In this document: positions 398 to 37,451 of the stretch, piece after piece | Layout: every line of letters starts with the position of its first letter | Numbering within the stretch: the first letter of the stretch is position 1 | Source: a virus | Lineage: Duplodnaviria > Heunggongvirae > Uroviricota > Caudoviricetes | Direction: 5' to 3' (one strand) | DNA length: 44,195 nucleotides | Virus record (IMG/VR): IMGVR_UViG_2541047814_000002 | The notes under the pieces: model-generated | The model's database searches: none | What the model saw: the letters and a program-made list of their open reading frames with translations, nothing else | Told to the model about the DNA's origin: nothing | Made by a program: the position numbers and the translations under genes

Positions 398-676
398 TCA
401 GCTCCATTCCCGAAGCGGTGTTTCCAGCTCCACGACATAATCAGAGAATACAGAAACATCAAACAAGTCATCAAGAATGCGAATGTTGACAAAATAACCG
501 TCATTCCGGACACAGACAGGTTCTCCCTCTTCTGTTACCCCTGTTTCTGTGTAGGTGAAACCAATTTCATCGACTAACAGTTTATTCTGGAGGTCTTCAT
601 CCTCCTCCCAGTCAAGAGATGACAGGAAGGCCTTAAACTGCAGTTTGTCATGAAACTTCAAAGTTAAATCTTTCAT
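398..676 (-). CDS. hypothetical acidic protein (92 aa), translationally coupled to the tail fiber gene
   Basis: Start codon overlaps the stf stop (673..676); occupies the position where lambda has tfa but is much shorter and unrecognised. Confidence 0.35.
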   Translation of the reverse strand: MKDLTLKFHDKLQFKAFLSSLDWEEDEDLQNKLLVDEIGFTYTETGVTEEGEPVCVRNDGYFVNIRILDDLFDVSVFSDYVVELETPLREWS

Positions 677-2733
677 ACGACCTCTTTTAATTGCCTGTCA
701 TTTAATTCTTTATGCCATATGCGGAAATTGCGAATATGGCCAAACAGATGTCGTTCTCCAGTATTCGTCTGCCCTCCAAATCGGATATTTTTATCAGCGG
801 TCACACCATTATATTCACAATAAACTTCATTAACCGCTTTACCATTTGTCACCACATGAAAGTGACCATCAGCTTTTGCAATACATCCAAATGTGGTTTT
901 CTCTGCAAATACATCTGTCGCTGCGCTATTAACATACAAGCCTGAAGGGTTTGACAGACTCATATATAACTTACCACTACCTCTGTTGATTGCTGCAATT
1001 GCTGATTGCCCGGTATTGGCTGCTGCTATATCCCACACGCGGGGTGCGGCGTTTGGTGCAATATCCCAGTTTTTATGAATCTCAAGTAAAAAAGTAAATG
1101 GTAACTTATAAAGATTATTTCTGGTGGGGATACTAACCAAATCACTGGCTCTTGTCGTTGCGCTGCCTCCTGAAATAATAAATGATGATACACACGGCCC
1201 ATTCTCTACTTGTGGGGTGGCAAGATAAATATAGTCACCAGATACTGTTGCCCCACCCCGCTCAGGAGAATACTGTATCTGAGAGCCTATTTTTAACTCA
1301 CCATCAATTGCCTGAATCGTTGCCTCTGCAAAAATCCAGCCTGTGGTCTTATCCTTCCTGACTCGTGCCGTAATTCTGCCGGCAGCCCCACCTGTCATAT
1401 TAATTTCAAGCGTTTGCGTATCAATGTACGCATCGCCAAGAAAAGTTGTTGCACTACCATCATACTTATCAAACCGTATACGTAACCTTACCTGTCGTTC
1501 TGTTTTAAAACGGCATGAGGTTGTCACGTACTTGTTATCGCCTGAGACATCAACTGACTTTGTTGCAGCAATTGATGCCATATTAATAGCCGAAGTTTGC
1601 CCAACCAGAGAATCGTTGCAGACAAACTTTCCATAAGTAAAACCAAAACTATCTGTCCCGGTTTCGGGCACATCCATGTTTGATGACTTCCCCCAGCTGG
1701 CTGGACTTTCCGAATTGAGCATGTAGTTCGTTCTTTGTCCCTCAATAAGCAGGCCATCACACTCAAATCGCGGCTCATTAATTTCCGCCGTTTTCAGTTC
1801 GCCAGATTTGTTGATATATGTTGCCGTTGATGCGCGACTGAAATTAACCTGTTTATCACTGGCGACCTGAACCACATCGTCACCAATAGCTATTTTTTTA
1901 TAGCCCGGAGAAAAACCCGCAATCATATCCAGTGAATCGTTAAACGGTATCCACACATCAGGCAGCGGCGGCACTATATTCGCATAGGGCTCTGCAGTCA
2001 CTTCCGCTGCGACTTCTGCGCGGTCTGCCGCCTTTTCAGCCCGTGTCGCTGCCGACAGAGCCTCATCCTTTTTCTGCCCGGCCTTTGTTGCGTCTGCTGC
2101 GGCCTCCCGCGCTTTTGTGGTGGCGACTCCGGCATTTTCAGCGGCTGACTCTGCATTACGGCGGGAAGCCTCTTCACTGTCTGCGGAGGCTTCTTCTGAC
2201 GCACGGGCATTTGTCTCTGAACGTTCTGCCGCTGTTGCTGCGTTTTGTGCGGCTGTTTTTGAAGAAGCTGCCGCTTTCGCGCTGTTACCTGCATTCGTCT
2301 CTGATGTTTTCGCCGCATTCCTGGACGATGCCGCTGCTGTTTCTGATTTCTTTGCTGCCGCTGCGCTCTGAGAGGCGGCTTCAGCGTTGCGTGCCACCTC
2401 TTCCACCATCTTTTCAAAACGATACAGTGCCTCCGGACGAACATCATCTTCTGTTGCAGCGCCCAGAAAATCATTCAATGTCCCCGGCTTAGAATCCTCA
2501 TACACGGTGATGGCCCCGGCATGTGAAGGCGGAAAACCTTCAACCAGCAGGATAACGCTGTACTGGCCATACTCGACATCCATGCTGTAACGTCCGGCTT
2601 CATCCGGATTTTCTGAGGCCACCGTGTTCACCACAACCGTGGTGCTGTTACGTTTTGCTTTGAGCTGAATGGTGCAGTTCTGTATCGGTTTTCCTGCACC
2701 GTCTTTCAGCACGCCTGAAATCTGTACTGCCAT
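673..2733 (-). CDS. stf: side tail fiber protein (Stf-like) with lambda Stf-type N-terminus, Ala/Ser-rich coiled-coil stalk and divergent C-terminal domain
   Basis: N-terminus MAVQISGVLKDGAGKPIQNCTIQLKAKRNSTTVVVNTV...GRYSMDVEYGQYSVIL matches remembered lambda Stf N-terminal domain; long low-complexity Ala-rich region; ATG at 2731..2733 (ORF track extends to a GTG at 2739). Confidence 0.8.
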   Translation of the reverse strand: MAVQISGVLKDGAGKPIQNCTIQLKAKRNSTTVVVNTVASENPDEAGRYSMDVEYGQYSVILLVEGFPPSHAGAITVYEDSKPGTLNDFLGAATEDDVRPEALYRFEKMVEEVARNAEAASQSAAAAKKSETAAASSRNAAKTSETNAGNSAKAAASSKTAAQNAATAAERSETNARASEEASADSEEASRRNAESAAENAGVATTKAREAAADATKAGQKKDEALSAATRAEKAADRAEVAAEVTAEPYANIVPPLPDVWIPFNDSLDMIAGFSPGYKKIAIGDDVVQVASDKQVNFSRASTATYINKSGELKTAEINEPRFECDGLLIEGQRTNYMLNSESPASWGKSSNMDVPETGTDSFGFTYGKFVCNDSLVGQTSAINMASIAATKSVDVSGDNKYVTTSCRFKTERQVRLRIRFDKYDGSATTFLGDAYIDTQTLEINMTGGAAGRITARVRKDKTTGWIFAEATIQAIDGELKIGSQIQYSPERGGATVSGDYIYLATPQVENGPCVSSFIISGGSATTRASDLVSIPTRNNLYKLPFTFLLEIHKNWDIAPNAAPRVWDIAAANTGQSAIAAINRGSGKLYMSLSNPSGLYVNSAATDVFAEKTTFGCIAKADGHFHVVTNGKAVNEVYCEYNGVTADKNIRFGGQTNTGERHLFGHIRNFRIWHKELNDRQLKEVV

Positions 2734-2743
2734 ATTCACTCCA

Positions 2744-2791: not shown

Positions 2792-5700
2792 TCAACTGAT
2801 ACTGATACCGGCTGTAGATTTCTTCATCACAACAACAAGAAGGTCGCTGATACTGGTCGTTGGCGTCCAGTTATTAGCACCATATGAAGAAACATTGAAA
2901 GTCAGGGTGACATGGCCGTGTCCGGCAGGCATATCAATGACTGATGAAAATACCCTGCTGACATCCGTCGCGGGTTGCTGAAAGATTTCCTGTCCGTTCT
3001 TCAGTACCTGCAGCTTACAGGTTGAATACCAGTATGACTGTTGGTTGTTGCTGTTGAAGTTTTCATGCTTACCCCCACGAAACAGAACGGGGGGGACTAC
3101 TATCTGACGGTCAAAAGCCTGGTCATCGTACACAGTGACCGTTATTGTACCGCTGGCATAACTGCCATTTCTCGGAAAGGCTTTTCCCACCGTTTTGACA
3201 ATATCACCTTCAATCTGGTTAGCTGACAGTTTTCCCAGAATCCGACAGTTCTGATTAATCGTGACGTTGTTGAGCGTCCCGGAGTTCGCGTTCACGTTAC
3301 CGCTGATATCCGCATTTTTCGCAGAAAGTCGACCATCAGGTGTCAGTGAAAACGTTGGGGGATTGCCACCGCTGGTAATGGTGGGAGCCGTCAGATATTT
3401 CAGGAACACTTCGTTCATGAATATCTGATCGCCCTGCCCAACAAACATCGGCTTTGTGTTGCCATTCGCAGGATTAATCATCGCAATCCTGTCCGCCGCC
3501 AGCAGCACCTGACTCTGCATACCGTCAGGAGTATTCTCAACACCGGCACCAATACCCGCGATATAAAGGCGTCCGTCCTGCATCTGCTGCAGCTTCACAG
3601 CCCACATGCTGTTCAGGTTATTATTTGTATCAACCTGAACCTTCTGTATCTGCTGGATCGCTGCACTCTGGTCTTCCAGTTTCTTATTGACGGTCTGCGT
3701 GATTTCATTGCTGACACCCGTAATGGACGTCCTGATTTCAGCCAGGTCAGGCGCAAGCTGACCGTTATCAATCTGCGTCCACAACTCCTGAGCCAGATGG
3801 GTTTTCCCTATCTCTCCTTTGAAAAAATTCAGATAGCCGGATGCATCATCACTCGGCTGGCCAACAGCCTCCACAAATGCCGATTTGCCAACGGTGTTCA
3901 CACTGCGGATGTAAAAATAATAATCATGGCCCGGTTTGATATTGATACTGGCGGCTATCCAGTACAGCGCCGTGCCAAGATAGCGTGCTGTGGTTTCAAC
4001 CTGCCTGATATCCGCAATCCGCTTTTCCGAGAACCAGAACTCAAACTGTACCGTCGGATCATAAACCGCAAGATGCGGCGTGGCGGTTATCTGAAAATAC
4101 CCCGGTGTCAGCTCAATCTGCGACGGCGCTGCCGGTGCGGCAATCCGGAACGATACCGATGCCGGATCGCCCTGCTGCCCCCACGCATTTACCGCCCGGA
4201 CTGTCAGCCTGTAGTTCCCCAGCGCCAGTTGCCTGAAGCGGTATGTGGTTTCCGTCGTCCGGGCCGTGCTGACCAGCCGCTCACTGCCGTCATCCGCTGC
4301 CACGGTCAGGCGAAGCATAAAGCTCACCCCCTTCACCACCTTCGGCGTGTCCCAGCGCGCCAGCACCTGATATTCCCCGCTGTCTGCGGTGACTTCGGCA
4401 GTCAGGTGCTGCACCGCTGGCGGCGTGACACCATTCACCGTGCCGCTCTGGTCGCCGTCAAAGTGCGCCCCGTTATCCACGATGGCCTCTTTTTCCGGTA
4501 CATGCTGCACGGCAGTGATGGCATACGTGCCGTCATCGTTCTCACGGATACTCACACAGCGGAACAGGCGCTGGCGCAACGTTGGCAACTTCAGCCCCCA
4601 CACGCTGTATTCTGCAACGCCGTCAGGAACACGGCTCACTTTTACCTTCACGCCGTCGGTGACGGACTGGACCTCCACGCTGACCGGATTCCCCTGTCCG
4701 TCAGCCAGGCTTATCAGCGTGGTGCCGGAGGATGGCAGCGTGATTTCACGGTCGAGCGTCAGTGTCCGCGTCTGGTTGTTCACCGCCAGCACGCGCCCGC
4801 CGATGCTGATCCCCGCATAGTCATCATCACAGATTTCAATGACATCGCCCGGTACATGGCGAAGCCCTTCTGCACCCACGCTGAAGTCCACGGTCTGCGT
4901 TTCCAGCAGCTCCGTTTTAATCAGCCACAGCCCGGCGCGGTGTGCCTGCCCCCGGCTGGTACAGCCAAAGGCATCCATCTTCGTGACGTTACGACCGTAA
5001 CGGGCAATGGCCTGCGTGTCCTCCACAAGCTCTGTCGCCGTCTCCCAGCCGTTATCCGGGTCAATCCAGTTCACCTCAACGGCATTATGGCGGTCTTTCA
5101 GGGCGCTGAAGCTGTAGCGGAACGGCGCGCCATCATCCGGCATCACCACATTACTGCGGTTATAGGTCCACACCTTATCCGACGGTCGGTCCTGCACGAA
5201 TGTCAGCGTCTGCCCGTTCCATACCGGCATACAGCGCATCGCCGAGCAAAAATCACTGAGCACATCCCACGCCTTGCGCTGTGTGGTCAGGTACGCATTA
5301 CAGGTGATGCGCGGCTCCGTGCCGCCAAAGCCGTCCGGCACTGACTGGTCGCAATTCTGGCCGATGACATACAGCGCCCATTTATCCACATCTGCCGCAC
5401 CAAGACGTTTCCCCATGCCGTAGCGCGGATGGGTCAGCATATCCCACAGACACCAGGCCATGTTGTTGCTGTATGCTGGCTTAAACGTTCCGTCCCAGAT
5501 ACCGCTGTATTGCCGCGTCTGCGGGTTATAGTTCGACGGCACCTGCAGAATGCGCCCGCGAAGATGATAATTACGGCTCACCTGCTGGCTGCCGAACTGC
5601 TCCGAGTCCACCTGTACGCCGACCAGTGCCGTGTTCGGGTAGCACTGTTTCACATCGATGATTTCGGTGTATGACGACCAGAGCGTTTTGTTCTGCAACT

Positions 5701-8351: not shown

Positions 8352-8680
8352 CAGTTCACCACCTGTTCAAACTCTGCGCTGAACTCAACACGCAGCATAC
8401 TGACCCGCGACGACCATTTTGCGCAGGTCACCTTTATCTGCCTGTAACCATAAGGCGGCGTCCACAGAAAGGCCTTCCAGCCCCCGTGCTCAGCCAGAAA
8501 CGACTCCAGCGCCGTGGCCTCCTCACGGGAGACAGACAGCGTCACGCTGTACGTTTTCAGGTCAGCGTTCAGCCCGGCAGGCGCACGCTGGGAATAGCCA
8601 TCACCAAAGCGCACCTCCCTGACGGAAGGAGCCGATGTCACATCCATCCCGGGTTTCACTTTCCAGCGGAAGGTTTTCAT
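8351..8680 (-). CDS. M: minor tail protein M
   Basis: 109 aa matching lambda M; stop overlaps L start. Confidence 0.9.
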   Translation of the reverse strand: MKTFRWKVKPGMDVTSAPSVREVRFGDGYSQRAPAGLNADLKTYSVTLSVSREEATALESFLAEHGGWKAFLWTPPYGYRQIKVTCAKWSSRVSMLRVEFSAEFEQVVN

Positions 8681-9813
8681 CGTCCACCTCCGGAGAACAG
8701 ACCACCATCGCGCATCTGTGCCTGGATTTCATCACGGGCACCCTTGCGGGCCATGTCATACACCGCCTTCATCATCTGTGGACCTGGCAGACCATTCGTA
8801 CCGTCGTTCTGAATCACCACGTTGTTGTTCTGCTCAAACCTGATACCCTCTGAACGCCGCATTTGCGCCGGACTTCCGGTGCCACCGACATAACCGCCGG
8901 TGGCATAGCCGCGCATCAGCCGGTAGAGATTTCCCACGCCAATCCGGCTGGTTGCCTCCTTCGTGAAGACAAATTCACCACGGTGAACAATCCCCGCTGG
9001 CTCATATTTGCCGCCGGTTCCCGTAAATCCTCCGGTTGCAAAATGGAGTTTCGCCGCAGCGGCCTGAATGGCTGTACCGCCTGACGCGGATGCGCCGCCA
9101 CCAACAGCCCCGCCAATAGCGCTGCCGATACTCCCGACAATCCCCACCATTGCCTGCTTAAGCAGAATTTCTGTCATCATGGACAGCACGGAACGGGTGA
9201 AGCTGCGCCAGTTCTGTTCACTGCCGGTCAGCATCGCCGCCATATTCTGCGCAATACCATCAAAGGTCTGCGTGGCAGCACTTTTAACCTGCGACATACT
9301 GTCCGTGGCACTCTCTTCCCACTCACTCCAGCCGGACTTCAGGCCTGCCATCCAGTTCCCGCGAAGCAGGTCTTCAGCCGCCCAGGTCTTTTTCTGCTCT
9401 GACATGACGTTATTCAGCGCCAGAGGATTATCGCCATACTGTTCCTTCAGGCGCTGTTCCGTGGCTTCCCGTTCTGCCTGCCGGTCAGTCAGCCCCCGGC
9501 TTTTCGCATCAATAGCGGCCCGTTTTGCCCGTTGCTGCTGTGCGAATTTATCCGCCTGCTGCGCCAGCGCGTTCAGGCGCTCCTGATACGTAACCTTGTC
9601 GCCAAGTGCAGCCAGCTGGCGTTTGTACTCCAGCGTCTCATCTTTATGCGCCAGCAGGGATTTCTCCTGTGCAGACAGCTGGCGACGTTGCGCCGCCTCC
9701 TCCAGTACCGCGAACTGACTCTCCGCCTTCCACAAATCCCGGCGCTGCTGGCTGATTTTCTCATTTGCTCCGGCATGCTTCTCCAGCGTCCGGAGTTCAG
9801 CCTGAAGCGTCAG
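8677..9813 (-). pseudogene. H: tail tape measure protein H, C-terminal fragment (gene split by IS insertion)
   Basis: Translation ...LTLQAELRTLEKHAGANEKISQQRRDLWKAESQFAVLEE... to GGLFSGGGR matches the C-terminal half of lambda H; frame is closed by a stop at the IS boundary (9814..9816). Confidence 0.9.
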
Positions 9814-9907
9814 CTATGAGACGACAATAACTCAGTCCGCCTGGCGCCGATTATTCTGGCCGGTTTTGTAACCTGAGTGTCATTTACATGATCCAACAGG
9901 AAATGGC

Positions 9908-11407
9908 GTGACGCTCAATACTTCTCAGGTCAGTTACTATATGACTCAGCGTAAGAAAGGTATAACTCAGCATATCTCGGCCATGAAGGCTGGTATCTCA
10001 GTCCGTTCTGGTCGTCGGATCGAAAAAGGAGAGTGGGCAAAAAACAGTGTTCGGCACTGGCGCACACGCAAAGATCCTCTGGAAGCTGTGTGGGACAGCA
10101 TGCTTGTTCCTCTGTTGAAAGAGAGGCCGGCTCTGACACCAACAACTCTGCTGGAGATGCTACAGGATAAATATCCCGGCCAGTACCCCAACAGCCTTCG
10201 AAGAACAATGCAACGGCGGGTCCGCGAATGGAAGCTACAGTATGGTGCAGAGCAGGAGGTCATGTTCCGCCAGCGACATCAGCCCGGTCTGCGAGGTCTG
10301 TCGGACTTTACTGAACTGAAAGGTGTAGTTGTCACCATCGCCGGTAAGTTGTTGGCGCATAAGTTGTATCACTTCCGTCTGGAATGGAGCCACTGGAGCT
10401 GGATGCGGGTTGTGCTGGGTGGTGAGAGCTTCTCTGCTCTGGCTGAAGGTCTGCAGGAAGCCCTCGGACAACTGGGCGGAGTGCCGGTAGAACATAAAAC
10501 GGACAGCCTGAGGGCAGCATGGAAACAACAGGGCGAAGATGGACGCCGCGAGCTGACTGAGCGTTATGCTGCTCTCTGTCAGCACTACGGAATGCAGGGC
10601 GTACACAATAATGCCGGTCGGGGCCACGAAAATGGCTCGGTTGAAAGTGCCCACGGACATCTGAAAAGGCGTATCTGTCAGGCGCTGATACTGCGGGGCA
10701 GTAACGACTTCAGCACCATAGAAGAATATCAGGCCTTCATCACTCAGCAGGTTATGCGGCACAACCGTAACAATCAGGATCTGGTCAAGGAAGAACGTCT
10801 TCATCTGAAACCGCTGCCGCTTCGTCGCAGTGCTGACTATGATGAGCTGACTGTGAGGGTTAGCCGCAGCAGTACCATCAATGTGAAGCACGTCGTCTAC
10901 AGCGTACCTTCCCGGCTTGTAGGTCAACTGTTACGGGTCCGGTTATGGGACGATCGTCTGAGCTGTTACGTTGGCAGCAGCGAGGTCATGAGCTGCCCAC
11001 GTGTCAGACCAGAAAAAGGGAAGACGCGGGCCCGTCGTATCGACTTCCGACATGTGATCGACAGTCTGGCAAAAAAGCCCGGTGCGTTCTGCCATGCAAC
11101 GCTGAGAAATGACATCCTGCCAGACGATGAATGGCGGAGGCTGTGGCGTCGCTTATGTAATCATCTGGAACCCGACATGGCAGGCAGGCTGATGGTACAT
11201 GCTCTGAAACTGGCTGCAGGATACGACGATATCTCAGTCGTGGCAAAAGGTATGGAGCAGATGCTGAATACCCCGGGAAACGTGGATCTGCACCGGCTGA
11301 TGCGCTTCCTGGGTATAAAGGAAAAGGCGTTGCCGGTAGTCAATGTGAAACAGCATAACCTGAGCAGTTATGAGCAACTACTGCGTGGCAAGGGAGGTTC
11401 GCAGTGA
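9908..11407 (+). CDS. istA: IS21-family transposase IstA
   Basis: 499-aa ORF with N-terminal HTH-like region and transposase-like core; followed by overlapping istB; exact start (GTG at 9908 or downstream ATG) uncertain. Confidence 0.8.
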   Translation: MTLNTSQVSYYMTQRKKGITQHISAMKAGISVRSGRRIEKGEWAKNSVRHWRTRKDPLEAVWDSMLVPLLKERPALTPTTLLEMLQDKYPGQYPNSLRRTMQRRVREWKLQYGAEQEVMFRQRHQPGLRGLSDFTELKGVVVTIAGKLLAHKLYHFRLEWSHWSWMRVVLGGESFSALAEGLQEALGQLGGVPVEHKTDSLRAAWKQQGEDGRRELTERYAALCQHYGMQGVHNNAGRGHENGSVESAHGHLKRRICQALILRGSNDFSTIEEYQAFITQQVMRHNRNNQDLVKEERLHLKPLPLRRSADYDELTVRVSRSSTINVKHVVYSVPSRLVGQLLRVRLWDDRLSCYVGSSEVMSCPRVRPEKGKTRARRIDFRHVIDSLAKKPGAFCHATLRNDILPDDEWRRLWRRLCNHLEPDMAGRLMVHALKLAAGYDDISVVAKGMEQMLNTPGNVDLHRLMRFLGIKEKALPVVNVKQHNLSSYEQLLRGKGGSQ

Positions 11408-12159
11408 GCAATATCCATCACCTTGAACGCAGCCTGCGTAAACTACGCCTGACACGAGTTGGAGCTGAATGGCACGCTCTGGAAAAACGAGCACTGGCAG
11501 AAGGCTGGACACCATCGCGCTATCTTCTGACGCTATGCAATGAAGAACTCCTGTGGCGCGAGAGTGAAAAACTGCGTCGTTATAAAAAGGAGGCCCGGTT
11601 GCCAGTTGCCAAAACGCTAAGCGAATACGACTTCAGTCAGGTGCCGGAACTGAATGGAGCTCAGTTCCGGCAACTCTGTGAAACGACAGACTGGGTTGAT
11701 GCAGGAGAAAACGTTCTGCTGTTCGGAGCCAGCGGGTTGGGGAAAAGCCATCTGGCGGCAGCGATCGTGGATGGCGTAGTAGGCCAGGGCTACCGGGCCC
11801 GGTTCTACAGCGCAGGAGAGTTGTTGCAGGAACTACGTAAAGCCAGAGCGCAGTTGAAACTGAATGAGCTGCTACTGAAACTGGATCGCTACCGGGTGAT
11901 AGTGGTGGATGATCTTGGCTATGTCAAACGCGACAGCGCCGAAACGGGAGTACTGTTCGAGTTAATAGCGCATCGCTATGAACGTGGGAGCCTGGTGATA
12001 ACCAGTAACCATCCGTTCAGCATGTGGGGCAGCATCTTCGTGGATGAGACTATGGCGGTGGCGGCGGCAGACCGGCTGATCCATCACGGATATATGTTCG
12101 AACTGAAAGGTGAAAGCTACAGGAAAAAGACAGCGAAGGCAGTAACAAGCGCGACTTGA
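11404..12159 (+). CDS. istB: IS21-family ATP-binding helper protein IstB
   Basis: 251 aa with Walker A GASGLGKSHLA and Walker B VIVVDDLGY; ATGA overlap with istA stop. Confidence 0.9.
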   Translation: MSNIHHLERSLRKLRLTRVGAEWHALEKRALAEGWTPSRYLLTLCNEELLWRESEKLRRYKKEARLPVAKTLSEYDFSQVPELNGAQFRQLCETTDWVDAGENVLLFGASGLGKSHLAAAIVDGVVGQGYRARFYSAGELLQELRKARAQLKLNELLLKLDRYRVIVVDDLGYVKRDSAETGVLFELIAHRYERGSLVITSNHPFSMWGSIFVDETMAVAAADRLIHHGYMFELKGESYRKKTAKAVTSAT

Positions 12160-12224
12160 TGTCGCACTGAAGGGTGCGGCCAGTATAGTTGGCGCGAGTC
12201 GGCAAAACTAGTTGACGTCTAATA

Positions 12225-13654
12225 GTCAGCAGGGCAGCATGAGCACTGTCTTCCTGACGATCGCCCGCAGACACCTTCACGCCGGACTGTTTCGGCTTTT
12301 TCAGCGTCGCTTCATAATCCTTTTTCGCCGCCGCCATCAGCGTGTTGTAATCTGCCTGCAGGATTTTCCCGTCTTTCAGTGCCTTGTTCAGTTCTTCCTG
12401 ACGGGCGGTATATTTCTCCAGCGGTGTCTGCAGCCGTTCGTAAGCCTTCTGCGCCTCTTCGGTATATTTCAGCCGTGATGCTTCGGTATCGCTCTGCTGC
12501 TGCGCATTTTTGTCCTGTTGACTCTGCTGTTCAGCCTTCTTTCGGGCGGCTTCAAGCGCAAGACGGGCCTTTTCACGATCATCCCAGTAACGCGCCCGCG
12601 CTTCATCGTTAACAAAATAATCATCCTTGCGCAGATTCCAGATGTCGTCCGCTTTCTTAAACGCAGCCTCTGCCTTAATCAGCATCTCCTGAGCGGTATC
12701 AGGACGACCAATATCCAGCACCGCATCCCACATGGATTTGAATGCCCGTGCTGTCCTGTCTGCCCAGGTTTCCAGCGTGCCCATGTTCTCTTTCAGGCGT
12801 CGGGTCTGGTCATCAAACCCTTTCGTTGCGGCCTCGTTCGCCGCCTGCAATGCCCCGGATTCATCGCCGGAACGCTGCAACTGAGCAACATACGCAATCT
12901 GCTCCGCCGTTACGTTATGGAACTGGCGCGCCATCGCCGTCAGCCCCGACGTCGGGTCAGTGGTCAGCTTCCCGAAGGCTTCAGCGACCTTGTCCACCTC
13001 CACGCCGGATGCAGAGGAGAAACGCGCCACACTCTGGCTGATGGATGCAATCTGAGCCTCACCGCTTACTCCCGCCTTAACCAGTGCGCTGAGTGACTCG
13101 CTGGTCTGGTTAAACGTCAGCCCTGCCGCCTGCCCGGCTCTGGACAGGACCAGCATACGATCTGCCGTCAGACCCGACTGATTGCCGGAAAGGACCAGCG
13201 TTTTGTTGAAATCGGACAGGGTTGAGTTACCCTGATACCAGGCATACGCCAGCGCACCGGTCGCCACCGCCAGCGAGGTGGCCCCGACCATCGGCAGGGT
13301 GATCGCACCGGCAAGCCCCCGGAACATGGGGATCATCCCGCCGAAGGAGTCCTTAACCTGACCACCCTGTTGCAGCAGGATCAGCCACGGGCTTTGCCCG
13401 CCTGCAAGCTGCGTGGCCACGTCGGTGAACTGTGCAGGCAGCATACGCATGGCGGCTTTATACTGCCCGACGGAAATCCCCGCTTTCTGTGCAGCCAGCG
13501 CCTGTCGGCTCAGCGACTGTTCAACGACTGCCGCTGTTTTTTTCGCATCACTTTCCGTACCGGAAAAATGACGCCTGACTCTGGCCATCTGCTCGTCAAA
13601 TCTGGCCGCATCCAGACTTAAATCAACGACCAGATCGCCTACCGGTTCAGCCAT
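12225..13654 (-). pseudogene. H: tail tape measure protein H, N-terminal fragment (gene split by IS insertion)
   Basis: MAEPVGDLVVDLSLDAARFDEQMARVRRHF... through ...SAHAALLT matches the lambda H N-terminal part; the ORF-track ORF 12050..13654 continues 57 codons into IS sequence (read-through artefact). Confidence 0.9.
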
Positions 13655-25146: not shown

Positions 25147-25473
25147 TCAAGGACGTGACGGCGTAAAGATAAATTGTCTCTTCACTCCCTGACAGGGGCG
25201 ATTCTTTTCAAATCGCCATTTCGCCATGGCCTTCACCACTTCATCACGAAACAAATTATGAGGCTCTGAGCGGAGAAAAACGATCCGTGTCACAGTCCCA
25301 TCAGCACCAATATCGAACTTAACCTCAACCAGCCCCTTGATATAATTTGCTGCAGCATATTCCGGATATCGTGGATACACCGTCACTAATTGCCGGGGCT
25401 CATCAGCTTTTTGCTGCGAGCATCCCACTGCCAGGACAGATAACAGAAAAAGTAGTAAAAGGCGTCTTTTCAT
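25147..25473 (-). CDS. TonB C-terminal-domain-like lipoprotein
   Basis: Lipoprotein signal MKRRLLLLFLLSVLAVGC; remainder resembles the TonB C-terminal domain (YP.YP..A....I.G.V.VKFDI.ADG.V......L.S.P...F..EV.KAM.KWRF). Confidence 0.6.
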   Translation of the reverse strand: MKRRLLLLFLLSVLAVGCSQQKADEPRQLVTVYPRYPEYAAANYIKGLVEVKFDIGADGTVTRIVFLRSEPHNLFRDEVVKAMAKWRFEKNRPCQGVKRQFIFTPSRP

Positions 25474-25953: not shown

Positions 25954-26247
25954 ATGAAAAAAATGTTGTTTTCTGCCGCTCTGGCAATGCTTATTACAGG
26001 ATGTGCTCAACAGACGTTTACTGTTGGAAACAAACCTACAGCAGTAACACCAAAGGAAACCATCACCCATCATTTCTTCGTTTCGGGAATTGGGCAGAAG
26101 AAAACTGTCGATGCAGCAAAAATTTGTGGTGGTGCAGAAAATGTTGTTAAAACAGAAACCCAGCAAACATTCGTAAATGGATTGCTCGGTTTTATTACTT
26201 TAGGCATTTATACTCCGCTGGAAGCGCGTGTGTATTGCTCACAATAA
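25954..26247 (+). CDS. bor: Bor lipoprotein (serum-resistance, Iss family)
   Basis: 97 aa, MKKMLFSAALAMLITGCAQQTFTV.NKP.AV.PKETITHHFFVSGIGQKKTVDAAKICGG... matches lambda Bor. Confidence 0.9.
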   Translation: MKKMLFSAALAMLITGCAQQTFTVGNKPTAVTPKETITHHFFVSGIGQKKTVDAAKICGGAENVVKTETQQTFVNGLLGFITLGIYTPLEARVYCSQ

Positions 26248-27449: not shown

Positions 27450-27574
27450 AACCCCACCTCGCAGACAAAGCGGGTGTAAATTAAGGGGATACTACGTATC
27501 GCAATAAAGGCAGAAACGTAACAGATTCGGAGTCAGTGAATAACTCAGGTATTGGGTTATCAGCTAATATCGAG

Positions 27575-27612
27575 ACTCAAAAAATGGAAAAACCCGCTCG
27601 ACGGCGGGTTTA
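27575..27612 (-). terminator. candidate intrinsic terminator upstream of S
   Basis: Minus-strand hairpin AACCCGC..GCGGGTT followed by TTTTTCCATTTTTTGA. Confidence 0.4.
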
Positions 27613-28037
27613 AGCTGTGTGACGAAGTAACCACTCTTAACAGCATAACCAATTTTTTACGTACGTAAACTACTAAATGATATTTGTGAGAATGCCACCG
27701 AGTGTTCAAAACACCACCACAAATGCATAAGAAAACTTCAACAAATAACCAGTTAATAATTTCCAATGTTATTTTTAGTTTGTTTAAATTAAGCTAAAGA
27801 ATTATAGAGCACTTATAAATAAGTGCCATTAATATAAATTAGCTAATAGATTTATTTTTGTTCAGACAAGAGCCATGAATAGGATTAGATAGAAAAGGTT
27901 CAGATAAAAATAGAGATCTACTTCACAAATTAAATGAGAAACTAAAACTTACATCTTGAAATAATCACATTGATTAGATGAATATTTATCGCGCAGTGAC
28001 ATCATTTTTTAATAATAGTTCAAAAAAAGGGCGTACA

Positions 28038-29120
28038 ATGAAAAAATTAACAGTGGCAATTTCTGCTGTAGCTGCATCAGTACTGATGGCGATGTCTGCT
28101 CAGGCAGCTGAAATTTATAATAAAGACAGTAACAAGCTGGATCTATACGGGAAAGTTAATGCCAAGCACTACTTCTCCTCTAATGATGCAGATGATGGTG
28201 ATACTACTTATGCCCGTCTTGGCTTCAAAGGTGAAACCCAAATCAACGATCAACTGACTGGTTTCGGTCAGTGGGAATATGAATTCAAAGGCAACCGTGC
28301 TGAATCTCAAGGTTCTTCCAAAGACAAAACCCGTCTTGCATTTGCAGGCCTGAAATTTGGTGATTACGGCTCAATCGATTACGGCCGTAACTACGGTGTA
28401 GCATACGACATCGGTGCGTGGACTGACGTTCTGCCAGAATTCGGTGGTGATACCTGGACCCAAACAGATGTGTTCATGACTGGTCGCACTACTGGTGTTG
28501 CAACTTATCGTAACAACGACTTCTTTGGTCTGGTCGATGGCCTGAACTTTGCTGCTCAGTATCAGGGTAAAAATGACCGCACTGACGTAACTGAAGCCAA
28601 TGGTGATGGTTTCGGTTTCTCCACTACTTATGAGTATGAAGGATTCGGCGTGGGTGCAACCTATGCTAAATCAGATCGCACTGACGGTCAGGTCGCCTAT
28701 GGTAAGAGCAAATTCAATGCCTCCGGCAAAAATGCGGAAGTATGGGCTGCAGGCCTGAAATATGATGCGAACAATATCTATCTGGCTACCACATATTCTG
28801 AAACTCAGAATATGACCGTTTTTGGTAATAACCATATTGCAAACAAAGCACAAAACTTTGAAGCAGTAGCACAATATCAGTTTGACTTCGGTCTGCGTCC
28901 ATCTGTTGCTTACCTTCAGTCAAAAGGTAAAGACCTTGGTGTTCATGGTGACCGAGACTTAGTCAAGTATGTCGATGTCGGTGCTACTTACTACTTTAAT
29001 AAAAACATGTCCACTTTTGTTGATTACAAAATCAACTTAATTGACGATAGTAAGTTTACCAAAACAGCTGGTATTGATACCGACGACATCGTCGCTGTAG
29101 GTCTGGTTTATCAGTTCTAA
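28038..29120 (+). CDS. nmpC: outer membrane porin, NmpC/Lc (OmpC-family) type
   Basis: 360 aa with signal peptide [38 protein letters not shown] start and C-terminal VAVGLVYQF; located between Q and S as in DLP12 and PA-2. Confidence 0.9.
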
Positions 29121-29137
29121 TCTGACTTACGAAAAAG

Positions 29138-29172
29138 ATATGTTGCGGGAGGCTTTGCCTCCGCAACATATA
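29138..29172 (-). terminator. candidate late-region terminator (tR'-like) between Q and porin
   Basis: Long perfect hairpin ATATGTTGCGGAGG-CAAAG-CCTCCCGCAACATAT followed on the minus strand by TCTTTTTCG. Confidence 0.35.
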
Positions 29173-29257
29173 AGTGGAGCCCTCAAGCCACTTCCTTTAG
29201 AAGCACTACCTTGCTTCTTACTATATAAACCTTCTGTTATATATTACCCTTTATTTT

Positions 29258-29282
29258 GGGGGCGTTTCCACGCCCCATTTTT
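29258..29282 (+). terminator. candidate intrinsic terminator downstream of porin gene
   Basis: Plus-strand hairpin GGGGCGT-TTCC-ACGCCCC followed by ATTTTTAA. Confidence 0.4.
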
Positions 29283-29308
29283 AATAACTTTTAGTAAACA
29301 ATTGCATA

Positions 29309-29692
29309 TCAATTAGAATTATTAGCAACGATATCCATATCTAACCGGATATCTAATGCCATTAACATCCCTTCAATTATGCCCTCAGCCTTCTGTAACC
29401 TTTTCCCGATATAACCATCCGAGCAGCAATGCTTACTTGCCAGTGACATGAATGTCATACCACATACATAATAATCTACTAATAAATCGTGTAAATCGCT
29501 GTTGTTCTTTTTCAGACGGGCCATGCACCCGCAAATGATCATCGCGTCATCGTCACAACATTGCGGGCGAGATTTTACTTTTGAAGGAATTAATCCCTTA
29601 AAACCGGCGGCAATGGACGACCAGGTCACATCTTCATGATTATTAGCCGCCCACGCACCCCAACGCTCAAGAACCATCTGAATATCACGCAT
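29309..29692 (-). CDS. Q: late gene antiterminator Q (DLP12 QuuD / phage 82-type)
   Basis: 127 aa from ATG 29690..29692, [22 protein letters not shown]... with Cys-rich region; position upstream of lysis cassette. Confidence 0.8.
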
Positions 29693-29914
29693 CAACTTAC
29701 TCCACAAAAATCAGACCAGAACGCCAATTACAAGCAAAAATCAACAAAACAGTATTAGTTGATTGTTATCTCTGACTTCATACTCCTGTTCCTGTCAGGG
29801 TTTTGGCGTAATTCTTCAGTATTCGGTAATCGGTCAAAACAGAACCGAGGAAACGATATAAGCGCAGACGCCCCCAGCGGTGGCGAAGAAGTTCTGCCAT
29901 ATTAAACTCAAACA

Positions 29915-30277
29915 TCATTCATTCCCCATTTCGGTGATGGTCAGTTCCAGCCTCCCACCTTTGGTAACAGGCATCTTCACAACGCGGTAATCAACGACCT
30001 GAGCATCATCCAGCCAGAAACCTGCTTTAGTGAGTGCGTCAAAAGCGGCTTTTTGCAGATTATCCAGGTCACGGCGACGGCGATCCGGCATGTGGCACTC
30101 AATGCGGATTTTCACAGGCATAGCCAGGCCGATATCCAGCATTGCGTTTTTAATGATTCGGGCGACGTTATCGCGGTATGCCTGCCCCTCTGCGCTGACG
30201 TGCGTGCGCCCGCGATTATGGCGGTAATAGCGATTATTGCTCGGAGGCCAGGGTAATGTGATGCTGTAGGTATTCAC
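29915..30277 (-). CDS. rusA: Holliday junction resolvase RusA
   Basis: 120 aa, [35 protein letters not shown]... matches E. coli RusA. Confidence 0.9.
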
Positions 30278-30296
30278 GCCTTAATAACCCCCTCTT

Positions 30297-30491
30297 TCAG
30301 CCACATAACCTGTGTTCTCGCCATACCTTCCAGCGCGCATTCTTTTGCATATGCAGCATCGACTTGCTTGGCATGCCCTTTACCGGCAATCTTCTGTATG
30401 CGCTAAACCTAGATAGAATCCACTCTGTGCACATTGAAGCCCGCTCTATGCTTTCTTTCAGGTATTGAAGGGATTGAGATGGGCTAAGCAT
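30297..30491 (-). CDS. hypothetical small protein (64 aa), nin region
   Basis: ORF tightly packed between flanking genes (start overlaps upstream stop); no homology recognised. Confidence 0.3.
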
Positions 30492-30831
30492 TATTGGCCT
30501 CCTGCATCAGGAGAAAGACAATCATGGCGGCGCGGAGAGGTCTGGTATCAAATATTGGGCTTACGCCTTTTGCATCCACACACCATTCAGTTAACTGGTC
30601 TAAGATAGAAATCCTGTATTTCTCAATAATCGGCCATGAAGCGCTCGGATCATTGCAGTAGTCAGGCAAATGATTTAATGGCTCAAAAGTTGTATCAGCA
30701 TTTCCGTAATACCATTTGTTGGTGTTATTCCCTGATGTTTCCGGTTTACTTGCCCAAAGGCCTTTAAAAATTATGTCTCCTACCATTCTGTTAATTTCAA
30801 AATCACTTAACTGTGAATAATCCATTGTCAT
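30484..30831 (-). CDS. hypothetical nin-region protein (115 aa)
   Basis: ORF start overlaps ninE stop; occupies the ybcO-like position of DLP12; not recognised. Confidence 0.5.
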
Positions 30832-31004
30832 TTCCTCGCACGATATCTTAGCCACCGGATATCCCACAGGTGGGCTGTGTAATTGAAGGTTTTTACGTCA
30901 GATTCTTTTGGGATTAGCTTGCGTTTATTTCTGGAGCGTTTCGTTGGAAGGTATTTGCAGTTTTCGCAGATTATGTCGGTGATGCTTCGTCGCTGTCGTC
31001 TCAT
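30828..31004 (-). CDS. ninE: NinE
   Basis: [52 protein letters not shown]... matches lambda NinE. Confidence 0.8.
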
Positions 31005-31528
31005 GCAGCCCTCCTGACGCCCTGCCCGATCGCCATCAATGCCGCTTTGGATACGGTAGTAAACATCCGTCGAGGACTGATGAACGGTCGCCAAATCAGC
31101 AGCATGGAGCCTTTGCTGTTTCCCTTCTTCTCCAGCCCTGTCGATGGTTCGATAAAATTAATCCGTCCATCAGTGATAATACGAACTTCGTCAACACTCT
31201 CCAGAGCCTTGCTGAACCATCCGACAGACATATCCTCTGGCACAAGCATCACTACCGTCTGTCGCTGTTGTATACACTGCTCAGCGGCTTTTTCCACCCA
31301 CGGCCTGATATTGCTGTACGGTGGGTTATTCCAGATTGCACCGTGGCTTACCCACTCAGAATTGAGCGCGTCGTCGTCCTCAGTTAGCCAGTGAGCGCAC
31401 AGAGCATTTTTGTCGCTCGCTGCCGAATCCAGCCAGAATCCAAACTCAATATCCAGTGCATCAAAAAGCCAAAGCGGCGTTTGCCAGCAGTCCTTGTCGT
31501 GTGCTGGCGTATTTGATTTGATAGTCAT
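31001..31528 (-). CDS. phage DNA N6-adenine methyltransferase (Dam-like, orphan)
   Basis: NPPY catalytic motif (WNNPPYSN) and [13 protein letters not shown]-terminus typical of phage N6-adenine MTases; no adjacent restriction gene. Confidence 0.75.
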
Positions 31529-34252: not shown

Positions 34253-34393
34253 TTCTTAAGATTTCCAATAGTGAATAGTTAGTTGAAAGGTATGCGTGGA
34301 AACGCATATGGCCTTAGTTGGTCAGATATCTTGGAACTCGCTTTTCAGCGACGTAGGACGAATGTCCGTTGTTACAAAGAGCGGATCCGCTTA

Positions 34394-34609
34394 TTAAGCG
34401 GCTTTGTGTTCCGGCGGGAACACGTCATCAAGACTGACTTTTGCGCCTAACTTGTTTAGGCACGCAACAAGAGCACGGCATGTTTTAAGGTCTGGGAAGC
34501 GACGACCAGATTCCCAATGTCCGATAGCTCCCTGTGTGCATCCAACTGCCTTAGCAAGTGTTGTTTGAGAGATATTCAGTGACTCTCGATATTTTCGTAG
34601 GTTGCTCAT
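34394..34609 (-). CDS. cro: Cro-type repressor (HTH, non-lambda specificity)
   Basis: 71 aa from ATG 34607..34609, MSNLRKYRESLNISQTTLAKAVGCTQGAIGHWESGRRFP... HTH; divergent from cI across operator region. Confidence 0.75.
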   Translation of the reverse strand: MSNLRKYRESLNISQTTLAKAVGCTQGAIGHWESGRRFPDLKTCRALVACLNKLGAKVSLDDVFPPEHKAA

Positions 34610-34720
34610 ATGCCCTCCATAGTAAACACGAATAAAAAAATACAATATGTACTTTGCGAATACAAGTAAAAATACACATTGTGCATGGATGGTTCCAGTA
34701 CAGAGCGTAATAATAAGGAC
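34610..34720. promoter_or_regulatory. OR operator / pR-pRM divergent promoter region
   Basis: Intergenic region between divergent cro and cI; repeated AATACA(A/C) half-sites and near-palindromes TACAATATGTAC and CACATTGTG. Confidence 0.5.
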
Positions 34721-35380
34721 ATGAAAATGAAATGGTATGAACTGGCTAGATCCAGAATGAAAGAGCTCGGCATAACTCAAGAGAAGTTAGCCGAAGAGCT
34801 AGGTATGACGCAGGGTGGGATTGGACACTGGTTGCGCGGATCTCGTCATCCATCTCTTAGTGATATTGGTGTGGTGTTTAAATACCTTGGTATTGATAAC
34901 ATATCATTCAACCACGACGGGACATTTTCACCTGTTGGCGAATACTCATCGGCCCCAGTTAAAAAACAATATGAGTACCCTGTTTTTTCTCATGTTCAGG
35001 CTGGGATGTTCTCTCCAGAACTCAGAACCTTTACCAAAGGCGATGCGGAGAGATTGGTAAGCACAACCAAAAAAGCCAGTGACTCTGCATTCTGGCTTGA
35101 GGTTGAAGGTAACTCAATGACCGCACCAACAGGTTCCAAACCCAGCTTTCCTGACGGGATGTTAATTCTGGTTGACCCTGAGCAAGCTGTTGAGCCCGGC
35201 GATTTCTGCATAGCCAGACTTGGTGGTGATGAATTTACCTTCAAGAAACTGATCAGGGATAGCGGTCAGGTGTTTCTACAGCCACTAAACCCACAATACC
35301 CAATGATCCCATGCAATGAGAGTTGTTCCGTTGTGGGGAAAGTTATCGCCAGCCAATGGCCTGAAGAGACGTTTGGGTGA
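34721..35380 (+). CDS. cI: cI repressor with lambda-type C-terminal (LexA-like autocleavage) domain and non-lambda N-terminal DNA-binding domain
   Basis: C-terminal ~140 aa ([27 protein letters not shown]...[22 protein letters not shown]) match lambda cI; N-terminal HTH is different. Confidence 0.9.
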
Positions 35381-35419
35381 TGAAACCACTTTTATCTACA
35401 ATTTACAGGGCGGTAAACA

Positions 35420-35977
35420 TTGGCAAAAATAGATGATTATCAGCCAAGCCAAGTAGAAGTTGATAAAGTACTTTATTGTAAAAAAATAGTTAACTTTTCT
35501 GGCGTTAAATGGAAACAGAAACCAAGTCGCTCTGATATGTGGCTACAAGCCCATATCATCCCCTTGGATGAGGATTGTATACCTATACAAGGGCTAAAGT
35601 TTGAACTGAAATGGAAACCAGATCAGGATTCAGAACCTGATGACCCGATTTCTTACCCTAAAATAAATATTATTGCTTTCTATCATAACAAGAGGGTTTT
35701 CGCGGTAGATACCTATCACTTTGACAAACACACGAATAGTTACAAGGTCGATCATCCGAAGTACCAAGATATCATTTACGGTGCTCACTACCATGTATAC
35801 TATGAAGAAGCTGGATACTATAGTGATAGAATAGCGTTTCCAATCGAAGATGACATAAACCCAGATGACCTGGTAGGGTATTGGAATTACTTCTGTAAAC
35901 ATCTGAACATAACTTACTCTGGGAGAATACCTTTACCGCTTGAAGATGAGTCGGGGCAAATGGGGTTTGGAATATGA
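35420..35977 (+). CDS. hypothetical protein (185 aa), first gene of an operon in the rexA position
   Basis: ORF 39 nt downstream of cI on the same strand; TTG start in the ORF track (start uncertain); acidic, Tyr/His-rich; no recognisable homology; AT-rich coding sequence. Confidence 0.65.
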   Translation: MAKIDDYQPSQVEVDKVLYCKKIVNFSGVKWKQKPSRSDMWLQAHIIPLDEDCIPIQGLKFELKWKPDQDSEPDDPISYPKINIIAFYHNKRVFAVDTYHFDKHTNSYKVDHPKYQDIIYGAHYHVYYEEAGYYSDRIAFPIEDDINPDDLVGYWNYFCKHLNITYSGRIPLPLEDESGQMGFGI

Positions 35978-36726
35978 TGTGCTCAACAGTGATCTCACAA
36001 CTAGGTTTCGAATGCCATCCAATAGGCAAGACCTTGAGAATTATCAGTCCATTCACTTACTGTGATGATGGAGAGCATGTCGGTGCCTTTATCCGTGAAG
36101 TCAATGGTAGGTATTTAGTTAGTGACAGATGCGATGCCTTAATGAATATGGAGGCAAGAGGGATCTCGCTTACCAAAAAACGACTTGATGAGATACGACA
36201 ATTACTGCTTAAAGAAGGCGCAGAACTCAATGCTCGAGGAGAAATCATTGCTTGGGCAACAGAAAAGGATGTCGGTGCGATTACATCGAACATAATTAGA
36301 GCTGGTATACTCGCATCAACTTTGTCGTTAGACTGGTATCAGCCAGTTCAAGCTGAAAAGTTTGAAAGTATGGTTATTGATTATCTATATCACACAGAGC
36401 TTAGAGACGCACTTTCTCTTCGTGAAAACGTATATGGCTTGAGTGGACATCAAATTACCGTCCCTGTAACAATAAAAACCGACATACCTAAATACGTTTT
36501 TACATCAAGCGTGAAACACGGAGGAAGCTGGAATAGTGCTTACTCATTGCTTGGGAAACTAATTGATCTTAAAGCTTCAAGTGAGGAGTATAACAACAGA
36601 TTTGTTGTTATAGACAGCGAAGCAATTGGTGATCAAATGCAACAACTCTCCTTACTCTTCCATGAATCAAGCCAAGTTCTACCATTCTCCAAAAGAGAGA
36701 CTTGGGTTAAGAGACTTGCAGCATAA
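35974..36726 (+). CDS. hypothetical protein (250 aa), second gene of an operon in the rexB position
   Basis: ATG overlaps upstream stop (ATGA); followed by intrinsic terminator; no recognisable homology. Confidence 0.7.
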   Translation: MMCSTVISQLGFECHPIGKTLRIISPFTYCDDGEHVGAFIREVNGRYLVSDRCDALMNMEARGISLTKKRLDEIRQLLLKEGAELNARGEIIAWATEKDVGAITSNIIRAGILASTLSLDWYQPVQAEKFESMVIDYLYHTELRDALSLRENVYGLSGHQITVPVTIKTDIPKYVFTSSVKHGGSWNSAYSLLGKLIDLKASSEEYNNRFVVIDSEAIGDQMQQLSLLFHESSQVLPFSKRETWVKRLAA

Positions 36727-36729
36727 TAC

Positions 36730-36758
36730 AACCCGGCCTCAGCGCCGGGTTTTCTTTG
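36730..36758 (+). terminator. intrinsic terminator ending the cI-immunity operon
   Basis: Hairpin CCCGGC-CTCAGC-GCCGGG followed by TTTTCTTTG immediately after stop at 36726. Confidence 0.6.
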
Positions 36759-36929
36759 CCTCACGTTCGCCCACCTAAAAACACATAACCAATTATATTT
36801 ATTGAAAAATAAATAGATGCAACCCACTAAACCACGCAATTCTGATCTCTCCTTACATCGCCGAGGCAATACATCCACGCTAAAAAACAACACTATTAAA
36901 TACAAAGCGTTATAAAAAACCACGCCAAC

Positions 36930-36980
36930 TTACAACAAATTGTATTGATCTTGTAAAGTACATATCGTACTATTTAACCG
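36930..36980 (+). promoter_or_regulatory. candidate pL promoter with OL operators
   Basis: GTACATATCGTAC (36958..36970) closely resembles the OR half-palindrome; candidate -35 TTGATC and -10 TACTAT with 17-nt spacer. Confidence 0.4.
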
Positions 36981-37019
36981 TCAGCAGGACGCTGGAAGCC
37001 AAATGGAACAGACTGGCAG

Positions 37020-37064
37020 GCTCTTTAAACAACGTCGACTCTCGACTACGTGGCTGAAAAGCCA
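37020..37064 (+). promoter_or_regulatory. candidate nutL (boxA GCTCTTTAAAC, boxB hairpin GGCTGAAAAGCC)
   Basis: boxA-like sequence resembling rrn/lambda boxA, followed ~20 nt later by a short hairpin with GAAAA loop, ~100 nt upstream of N. Confidence 0.4.
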
Positions 37065-37162
37065 GATCACCCAACCACATAAGCTGTGGGATGCAATGCC
37101 GAAGCAACCGTCTCAGGAGGAGCTTCGAGATTGCATCGCCAAAGTTTATTCGGGAGGAATCC

Positions 37163-37435: not shown

Positions 37436-37451
37436 TAAATTCATTTGCTAA

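What the first reader, a model, noticed from the sequence alone, without database searches (positions are those of the whole stretch)
9809..12229. IS21-family element inserted in tape measure gene H with intact 5-bp target-site duplication
The H reading frame is interrupted at codon ~476 by a ~2.4-kb element carrying istA and istB on the opposite strand. The 5-bp direct repeat GTCAG flanks it at 9809..9813 and 12225..12229. Deleting the element plus one repeat copy in silico restores ...AALLTLQAEL..., a contiguous 853-codon H like lambda. The clean duplication and otherwise intact prophage suggest a recent insertion that should abolish tail assembly, so the prophage is likely cryptic for infectious particles while still able to express lysogenic-conversion and immunity genes.
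Basis: seen in the sequence. Interest (0 to 1): 0.6.

Follow-up and report, generated by a model that had tools for sequence, protein, structure and literature searches.

The report
ISEc10 insertion splitting prophage tape-measure gene
A known, active E. coli jumping gene (ISEc10) has recently landed in the tail-length gene of an otherwise complete phage 21-like prophage, which should stop it making tails; this is an ordinary event of a well-known kind.

Summary
A 2,410-bp copy of ISEc10 (IS21 family; istA 9908-11407, istB 11404-12159, + strand) interrupts the lambda-type tape-measure gene H (- strand). It is 100% identical to copies in E. coli CFT073 and hundreds of other genomes. One correction: the target-site duplication is 6 bp, GTCAGC (9809-9814 and 12225-12230), not 5 bp, so the element is 9815-12224. 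This held in 11 of 11 independent copies and at two empty sites. Removing the element plus one repeat restores an 853-codon H, identical to the H of E. coli ATCC 11775 and 2 residues from phage 21 H.

The host is a phage 21-like, icd-integrating lambdoid prophage. All 61 other compared genes have intact reading frames, and cos is intact. The window is cut short on the left: phage 21 carries sitABCD and attP beyond it.

The junction is absent from 5,426 complete E. coli genomes. The chimeric ORF was found only in assembly GCA_000458975.1, so the insertion is private and recent.

Loss of tail assembly is a sound inference: the truncated product lacks the C-terminal tip anchor. It was not tested, and H from another prophage could rescue it. 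This is a known kind of event and of low interest.

The parts
9809..9814 (.). Left copy of the 6-bp target-site duplication GTCAGC
   Evidence: The empty sites in ATCC 11775 (L001 12188-12193) and phage 21 (L011 12154-12159) hold one copy.
9815..12224 (+). ISEc10 (IS21 family), 2,410 bp, ends 5'-TATGAGACG...CGTCTAATA-3'
   Evidence: 100% identity to copies in CFT073 and many other genomes. PGAP names them 'IS21-like element ISEc10 family'. fix the termini.
9815..9862 (+). Left imperfect terminal inverted repeat (IRL)
   Evidence: pair I1: 49-nt arms, 71% complementary, the longest inverted repeat in the region. The outermost base of each reported arm is target DNA.
9908..11407 (+). istA, transposase, 499 aa, intact
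   Evidence: NF033546 at 227 bits (cut-off 160). PF22483. Same coordinates within the element as the PGAP istA WP_000174402.1 in 100%-identical copies.
11404..12159 (+). istB, AAA+ helper ATPase, 251 aa, intact; its GTG start overlaps the istA stop by 4 nt
   Evidence: NF038214 at 266.7 bits (cut-off 200). PF01695, E=9.5e-62. Walker A GASGLGKS and Walker B VIVVDD are visible in the translation.
12177..12224 (+). Right imperfect terminal inverted repeat (IRR)
   Evidence: pair I1.
12225..12230 (.). Right copy of the 6-bp target-site duplication GTCAGC
12225..13654 (-). 5' part of tape-measure gene H (codons 1-477). The frame runs on into the IS to a stop at 12050, giving a 534-aa chimera (477 H residues plus 57 IS-derived)
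   Evidence: Pfam TMP_2 on this product.
8677..9808 (-). 3' part of H (end of codon 477 to 853 plus stop), with no start of its own at the junction. It holds the Tape_meas_lam_C domain and the C-terminal tip-anchoring helix
   Evidence: The position of the helix in lambda gpH (residues 818-842) is from PMC10721106.

Best explanation
A full-length, intact copy of the known insertion sequence ISEc10 (IS21 family) transposed into the tape-measure gene H of a phage 21-like lambdoid prophage integrated at icd. It duplicated 6 bp of target, GTCAGC. The event is recent and private to one sequenced strain (assembly GCA_000458975.1). H is now split. The upstream part encodes 477 H residues fused to 57 residues of IS-derived sequence. 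The downstream part, which holds the lambda-type C-terminal domain and the helix that anchors H in the tail tip, has no translation start of its own at the junction. V polymerises around H anchored in the J/I/L/K/M tip complex, so tails should not form. On induction the prophage would be expected to excise, replicate, package DNA into heads and lyse the cell, releasing tailless, non-infectious heads. Its repressor, exclusion genes and cargo genes are untouched. Shown here: the identity of the element, its termini, the duplication, the empty site, the restored frame, the intactness of the other genes and the rarity of the junction. Inferred: the tailless phenotype and the continued expression of the other genes.
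For: The IS is 100% identical over its whole length to copies annotated as ISEc10 in CFT073 and others; 491 records hold copies at >=99%. IstA and IstB score above the curated NCBIfam equivalog cut-offs. 49-nt imperfect inverted repeats sit at the ends. A 6-bp duplication was seen in 11 of 11 independent copies and is implied by the 6-nt overlap at two empty sites. The restored H is 853 aa, identical to ATCC 11775 H and 2 aa from phage 21 H. The empty site occurs at 100% identity in many genomes. The junction occurs in 0 of 5,426 complete genomes, and the chimeric ORF on one contig only. All 61 other CDS have intact frames and cos is intact. The structural region is 99.3-99.98% identical to functional phage 21. 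ISEc10 makes new insertions in CFT073 in the laboratory (PMC7482066). In lambda, gpH residues 818-842 form the coiled coil held in the tail tip by gpI, and the V tube assembles around H (PMC10721106; PMC3224144).
Against: No experiment on this strain was available, so the phenotype is inferred from lambda. Genomes that carry this H sequence hold a median of 2 places matching it, and up to 8. A second lambdoid prophage in the same cell could therefore supply H in trans or repair the gene by recombination. The rest of the source genome could not be inspected. The source is a scaffold-level assembly, so the placement of a repeated element rests on the assembler, although a clean 6-bp duplication is not what a misjoin produces.
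Confidence: 0.9

Rival explanations
1. The insertion is real, but the prophage still gives infectious particles, because H is supplied in trans by another lambdoid prophage or the gene is repaired by recombination with one. It would be helper-dependent rather than dead.
For: The 1-kb H segment around the site is found at a median of 2 and up to 8 places per genome in 3,715 of 5,426 genomes. Lambdoid tail genes are highly similar between phages.
Against: Whether the source strain holds a second compatible H could not be checked. Particles rescued in trans would still package the interrupted genome (41.8 kb plus 2.4 kb plus the roughly 5.6 kb beyond the window), and their progeny would again lack tails in a naive host.
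Confidence: 0.12
2. The element is 2,411 bp starting at the C at 9814, with a 5-bp duplication GTCAG.
For: All seven 100%-identical E. coli copies examined, and the window, have C before TATGAG.
Against: That base always equals the 6th base after the right end (11 of 11). It is G in three of those cases, L008 and L009 and L013, and T, G, C or A at four truncated ends. The related Klebsiella-phage copy aligns only from query base 2. The right end does not carry the matching G. Both empty sites overlap by 6 nt.
Confidence: 0.02
3. The IS is an assembly artefact: a repeat copy placed wrongly in a scaffold.
For: The source is a scaffold-level assembly, and ISEc10 is multicopy in many strains, up to 22 places per genome.
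Against: Both junctions are clean to the base. A perfect 6-bp duplication of the length typical for this element flanks it, and removal restores the frame exactly. A misjoin would not create a target duplication.
Confidence: 0.02
4. The insertion is old and fixed in a lineage, a step in prophage domestication, rather than recent.
For: None directly. Retention of cargo genes such as iss and sitABCD could favour immobilising the prophage.
Against: No other gene in the window has decayed. The IS has no difference from copies elsewhere. The junction is in 0 of 5,426 complete genomes, and the chimeric ORF is on one contig.
Confidence: 0.04

Closest known systems
ISEc10 (IS21 family) as annotated in E. 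coli CFT073 and many other genomes
   Same: 100% nucleotide identity over the whole element. Same istA and istB coordinates within the element as the PGAP calls WP_000174402.1 and WP_000065240.1. Same ends, and a 6-bp duplication at other sites.
   Different: Only the insertion site. This one was not seen in any of 5,426 complete E. coli genomes.
Escherichia phage 21 (OL657228.1), an icd-integrating lambdoid phage carrying sitABCD
   Same: The late region from the side tail fibre to Nu1/cos is 99.3-99.98% identical. The lysis genes are 98.2% identical, the int-to-ral region 97.6% and the replication genes 96.2%. H is 853 aa with 2 differences, and the side tail fibre is identical.
   Different: A different immunity region (window 34285-38152) and a different nin/Q region with a porin gene (27451-31524). 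H is interrupted here. The window lacks the sitABCD-to-attP segment.
The same prophage without the IS in E. coli ATCC 11775 (NZ_CP033092.2) and about 218 other complete genomes
   Same: 7 SNPs in 41.8 kb, the same gene content and the same chromosomal context, from sitD to int next to icd.
   Different: H is uninterrupted there, so it serves as the empty site.
ISEc10 insertion in another tape-measure gene, E. coli 510016 (NZ_CP025851.1)
   Same: The same IS (99.7% over the part matched) splits a prophage tape-measure gene, with a clean duplication (A)TCAGCG.
   Different: A different tape-measure family and site. The IS is in the same orientation as the gene, and an IS100 lies next to it.

Membership tests
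IS21 family | istA encodes an IS21-type DDE transposase | tested here: met
   NF033546 (equivalog) at 227 bits against a cut-off of 160, covering profile positions 2-293 of 294. PF22483 Mu-transpos_C_2.
IS21 family | istB, directly downstream, encodes an AAA+ helper ATPase | tested here: met
   NF038214 at 266.7 bits against a cut-off of 200. PF01695 IstB_IS21 at E=9.5e-62. 4-nt overlap with the istA stop.
IS21 family | Imperfect terminal inverted repeats at both ends | tested here: met
   49-nt arms, 71% complementary, exactly at the ends; the longest inverted repeat pair in the region.
IS21 family | Short target-site duplication (4-8 bp, range recalled from ISfinder's family description) | tested here: met
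   6 bp here and in 10 other copies. Two empty sites confirm it.
IS21 family | Ends usually 5'-TG...CA-3' (typical rather than defining; recalled from memory) | tested here: not met
   The ends are 5'-TATGAG...CTAATA-3'. This is a property of all ISEc10 copies, not of this one. It does not outweigh the protein and architecture criteria.
ISEc10 (named element) | Near-identity to the ISfinder reference sequence | not testable with these tools
   ISfinder was not available. Proxy: 100% identity to copies that PGAP labels 'IS21-like element ISEc10 family'.
Lambda-type tape-measure protein H | N-terminal TMP_2 and C-terminal Tape_meas_lam_C domains in one ~853-aa protein encoded after G/T and before M | tested here: met
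   PF06791 on the 5' fragment and PF09718 on the 3' fragment, with gene order G, T, H', IS, 'H, M, L. The restored protein is 853 aa, identical to the ATCC 11775 tape-measure protein.

The most novel reading that the evidence does not exclude
The split of H is not just damage but is selected. Immobilising a phage 21-like prophage would keep its cargo (iss, a porin, sitABCD just outside the window, and a possible defence pair after cI) while removing the cost of making infectious phage. Alternatively, ISEc10 may have a real preference for tape-measure genes, since two independent hits were seen. Nothing here tests selection or target bias beyond two anecdotes.
Probability: 0.04. Interest if true: 0.3.

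Novelty: already known. Interest (0 to 1): 0.1.

Why it matters
The finding matters mainly for annotation. The locus should be recorded as an ISEc10 insertion with a 6-bp duplication in a tape-measure pseudogene, within a phage 21-like prophage that is otherwise complete. Prophage-calling tools would probably score this region as intact, yet it is probably unable to make infectious particles on its own. It is a clean, datable example of the first step of prophage decay by an IS that is known to be active. It adds nothing new about IS21-family transposition or tail assembly.

Tried and rejected
- **5-bp duplication and 2,411-bp element:** rejected by comparing flanks of independent copies and two empty sites.
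- **'Prophage already defective at the tail fibre':** I considered this because PGAP marks the side tail fibre as a truncated pseudogene in ATCC 11775. It is rejected: the window has a complete ORF at 673-2739 whose 686 aa are identical to the phage 21 side tail fibre.
- **Same junction in complete E. coli genomes:** none found.
- **ISEc10 in deposited phage genomes:** only an 85.7%-identical relative in Klebsiella phages.
- **Promoter and terminator scan of the IS** for polarity or outward promoters: nothing above the shuffled background worth using.
- **Scan of species-representative genomes for the left end:** 6 loci, only one full-length copy. It was useful for the termini but not for the host range.
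- **Literature on phage 21 and sitABCD:** nothing relevant was listed.
Full report
**Observation**

The sequence shows GTCAG at 9809-9813 and again at 12225-12229. Between the two copies lie two + strand ORFs: 9908-11407 (499 aa) and 11404-12159 (251 aa). The interrupted gene lies on the - strand.

The first ORF scores 227 bits on the NCBIfam equivalog for IS21-family transposase (cut-off 160). The second scores 266.7 bits on the IstB helper ATPase equivalog (cut-off 200). Pfam gives IstB_IS21 at E=9.5e-62. The longest inverted repeat in the region lies exactly at the element's ends, with 49-nt arms that are 71% complementary.

Deleting 9814-12229 in silico gives a single 853-codon frame reading ...AHAALLTLQAEL....

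**Identity of the element**

The 2,411 bases 9814-12224 match 954 records of complete E. coli genomes. 491 of them match at >=99%, and many match at 100% over the full length, including CFT073, which has 7 places. PGAP labels the genes there 'IS21-like element ISEc10 family transposase' and '...helper ATPase IstB'.

ISEc10 is an active element. New ISEc10-istB insertions next to lpp were selected in CFT073 in the laboratory (PMC7482066). It is also reported in the afa promoter of ST131 strains (PMC8764528).

**Exact termini**

I compared the flanks of the window copy with seven other E. coli copies and a related Klebsiella-phage copy. I added a full-length 89.7%-identical copy in L015 and a 63-bp mini-element in Citrobacter braakii.

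- In all 11 cases the base before TATGAG equals the 6th base after ...CGTCTAATA. That base is C in 8 cases and G in 3.
- At four further truncated left ends the base is T, G, C or A.
- The Klebsiella-phage relative aligns only from base 2 of my query.
- Alignment of the window to the uninterrupted prophage in ATCC 11775 and to phage 21 shows a 6-nt overlap at the junction.

So the element is 9815-12224 (2,410 bp, 5'-TATGAG...CTAATA-3'). The duplication is 6 bp, GTCAGC, at 9809-9814 and 12225-12230.

**The host gene and the prophage**

The restored H is identical to the annotated tape-measure protein of E. coli ATCC 11775 and differs at 2 of 853 residues from phage 21 H. The 5' fragment carries Pfam TMP_2 and the 3' fragment carries Tape_meas_lam_C. 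The gene order is G, T, H', istB, istA, 'H, M, L.

| Window segment | Compared with | Result |
|---|---|---|
| Whole window minus the IS | ATCC 11775 prophage between sitD and icd | 7 SNPs in 41.8 kb |
| Side tail fibre to Nu1/cos | Phage 21 | 99.3-99.98% identical |
| Lysis genes | Phage 21 | 98.2% identical |
| Replication genes | Phage 21 | 96.2% identical |
| int-to-ral region | Phage 21 | 97.6% identical |
| Immunity region (34285-38152) | Phage 21 | different |
| nin/Q/porin region (27451-31524) | Phage 21 | different apart from a 195-nt match at 93.8% (30819-31012) |

All 61 other CDS mapped from ATCC 11775 are open in the window, with 5 amino-acid changes in total. The cos site is intact, and an N antiterminator is present.

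The side tail fibre is marked as a truncated pseudogene by PGAP in ATCC 11775. In the window it is a complete ORF (673-2739), identical in all 686 residues to the phage 21 side tail fibre.

So 'otherwise intact' holds for what the window contains. The window itself stops right after sitD. In phage 21, sitABCD, an icd' remnant and attP lie beyond that point. About 5.6 kb of the prophage is therefore outside the window.

**Age and distribution**

- The uninterrupted site occurs at 100% identity in many genomes, including CFT073, Nissle 1917 and UTI89.
- 218 complete genomes carry at least 80% of the adjacent 25 kb.
- No record among 5,426 complete genomes spans the IS-H junction.
- The exact 534-aa chimeric ORF is on record on one contig only: KE700797.1 of assembly GCA_000458975.1, evidently the source of the window.

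Together with an IS that has no differences from copies elsewhere and a perfect duplication, this points to a recent, strain-private insertion.

**Consequence (inferred)**

The upstream fragment encodes 477 H residues followed by 57 residues read from the IS. The downstream fragment has no start at the junction.

In lambda, tail assembly begins at J with I, L, K and G/GT adding H, and V polymerises on that scaffold (PMC3224144). The C-terminal helix of gpH (residues 818-842) sits in the tip lumen, held by gpI, and the V tube wraps the H oligomer that sets tail length (PMC10721106).

A product lacking residues 478-853 cannot be anchored in the tip, so no tails are expected. Heads, DNA packaging and lysis should be unaffected. 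The M start overlaps the H stop, so translational coupling to M may also be lost; this is inference only. The promoter and terminator scan gave nothing usable about polarity.

Immunity, exclusion and cargo genes (cI, sieB, iss, the porin) have intact reading frames. Expression was not tested.

**Caveats**

Genomes that carry this H segment hold a median of 2 places matching it. Another lambdoid prophage in the same cell could therefore supply H or repair the gene by recombination. The rest of the source genome could not be inspected.

The source is a scaffold-level assembly. However, a base-perfect 6-bp duplication of the length typical of the element is not what a misassembly produces.

**Comparison with what is known, and verdict**

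This is a known IS (ISEc10) doing a known thing, gene disruption with a target-site duplication, in a known phage type (phage 21-like). The only departure from the usual IS21-family description is the ends, TA...TA rather than TG...CA (the latter recalled from memory). That is a property of all ISEc10 copies.

The finding is correct and well read by the first stage, apart from the 5-bp versus 6-bp detail. It is ordinary. Novelty: already known. Interest: 0.1.

Noticed in passing
L013 1344-1406 (Citrobacter braakii ATCC 51113, NZ_NAEW01000004.1): A 63-bp miniature element made of the first 25 nt and last 25 nt of ISEc10 joined by 13 nt, flanked by a 6-bp duplication CACCTG. It looks like a MITE-like derivative that ISEc10-type transposase could mobilise. 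L016 holds a similar left end without a right end nearby.
   Followed up: partly
L009 (E. coli 510016, NZ_CP025851.1) about 3007-5416: An independent ISEc10 insertion in a different prophage tape-measure gene, with duplication (A)TCAGCG, directly followed by an IS100 copy. It is a second case of this IS splitting a tape-measure gene.
   Followed up: partly
window 35420-36726 (+): Two genes right after cI, in the position of lambda rexAB (185 aa, and 250 aa with DUF1828), weakly match the PADLOC candidate defence system PDC-M24: A at E=4.8e-4 and B at E=4.7e-10. This may be a prophage-borne defence pair.
   Followed up: partly
window 673-2739 (-): Complete side tail fibre gene (686 aa from the ATG; phage_tail_N plus a weak, sub-threshold Laminin_G_3 match at the C-terminus), 100% identical to phage 21 stf. 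In ATCC 11775, PGAP annotates only a 120-aa N-terminal 'incomplete' pseudogene here and leaves 1.7 kb unannotated, which is an annotation artefact.
   Followed up: yes
window 1 and 44195 (edges): The window starts on the base after the sitD stop and ends on the last base of int. In phage 21, sitABCD, an icd' remnant and attP are part of the phage genome. The window is therefore a prophage call cut short by about 5.6 kb, and the sit iron/manganese transporter is phage cargo.
   Followed up: partly
window 27451-31524, including 28038-29120 (+): The nin/Q region differs from phage 21 and carries an OmpC-type porin gene between Q and the lysis genes. iss (a bor homologue, 25954-26247) and a TonB C-terminal-domain gene (25147-25473) lie between the lysis genes and cos. 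This is lysogenic-conversion cargo.
   Followed up: no
Flanks of ISEc10 copies: window, L002-L009, L013, L015: The duplicated base next to the left end is C in 8 of 11 copies and G in 3. The first base of the duplication is G or C in 10 of 11. This suggests a target preference of the form S-N4-S. One copy (L006) has a mismatch in its duplication (ACGGAC against CCGGAC).
   Followed up: no
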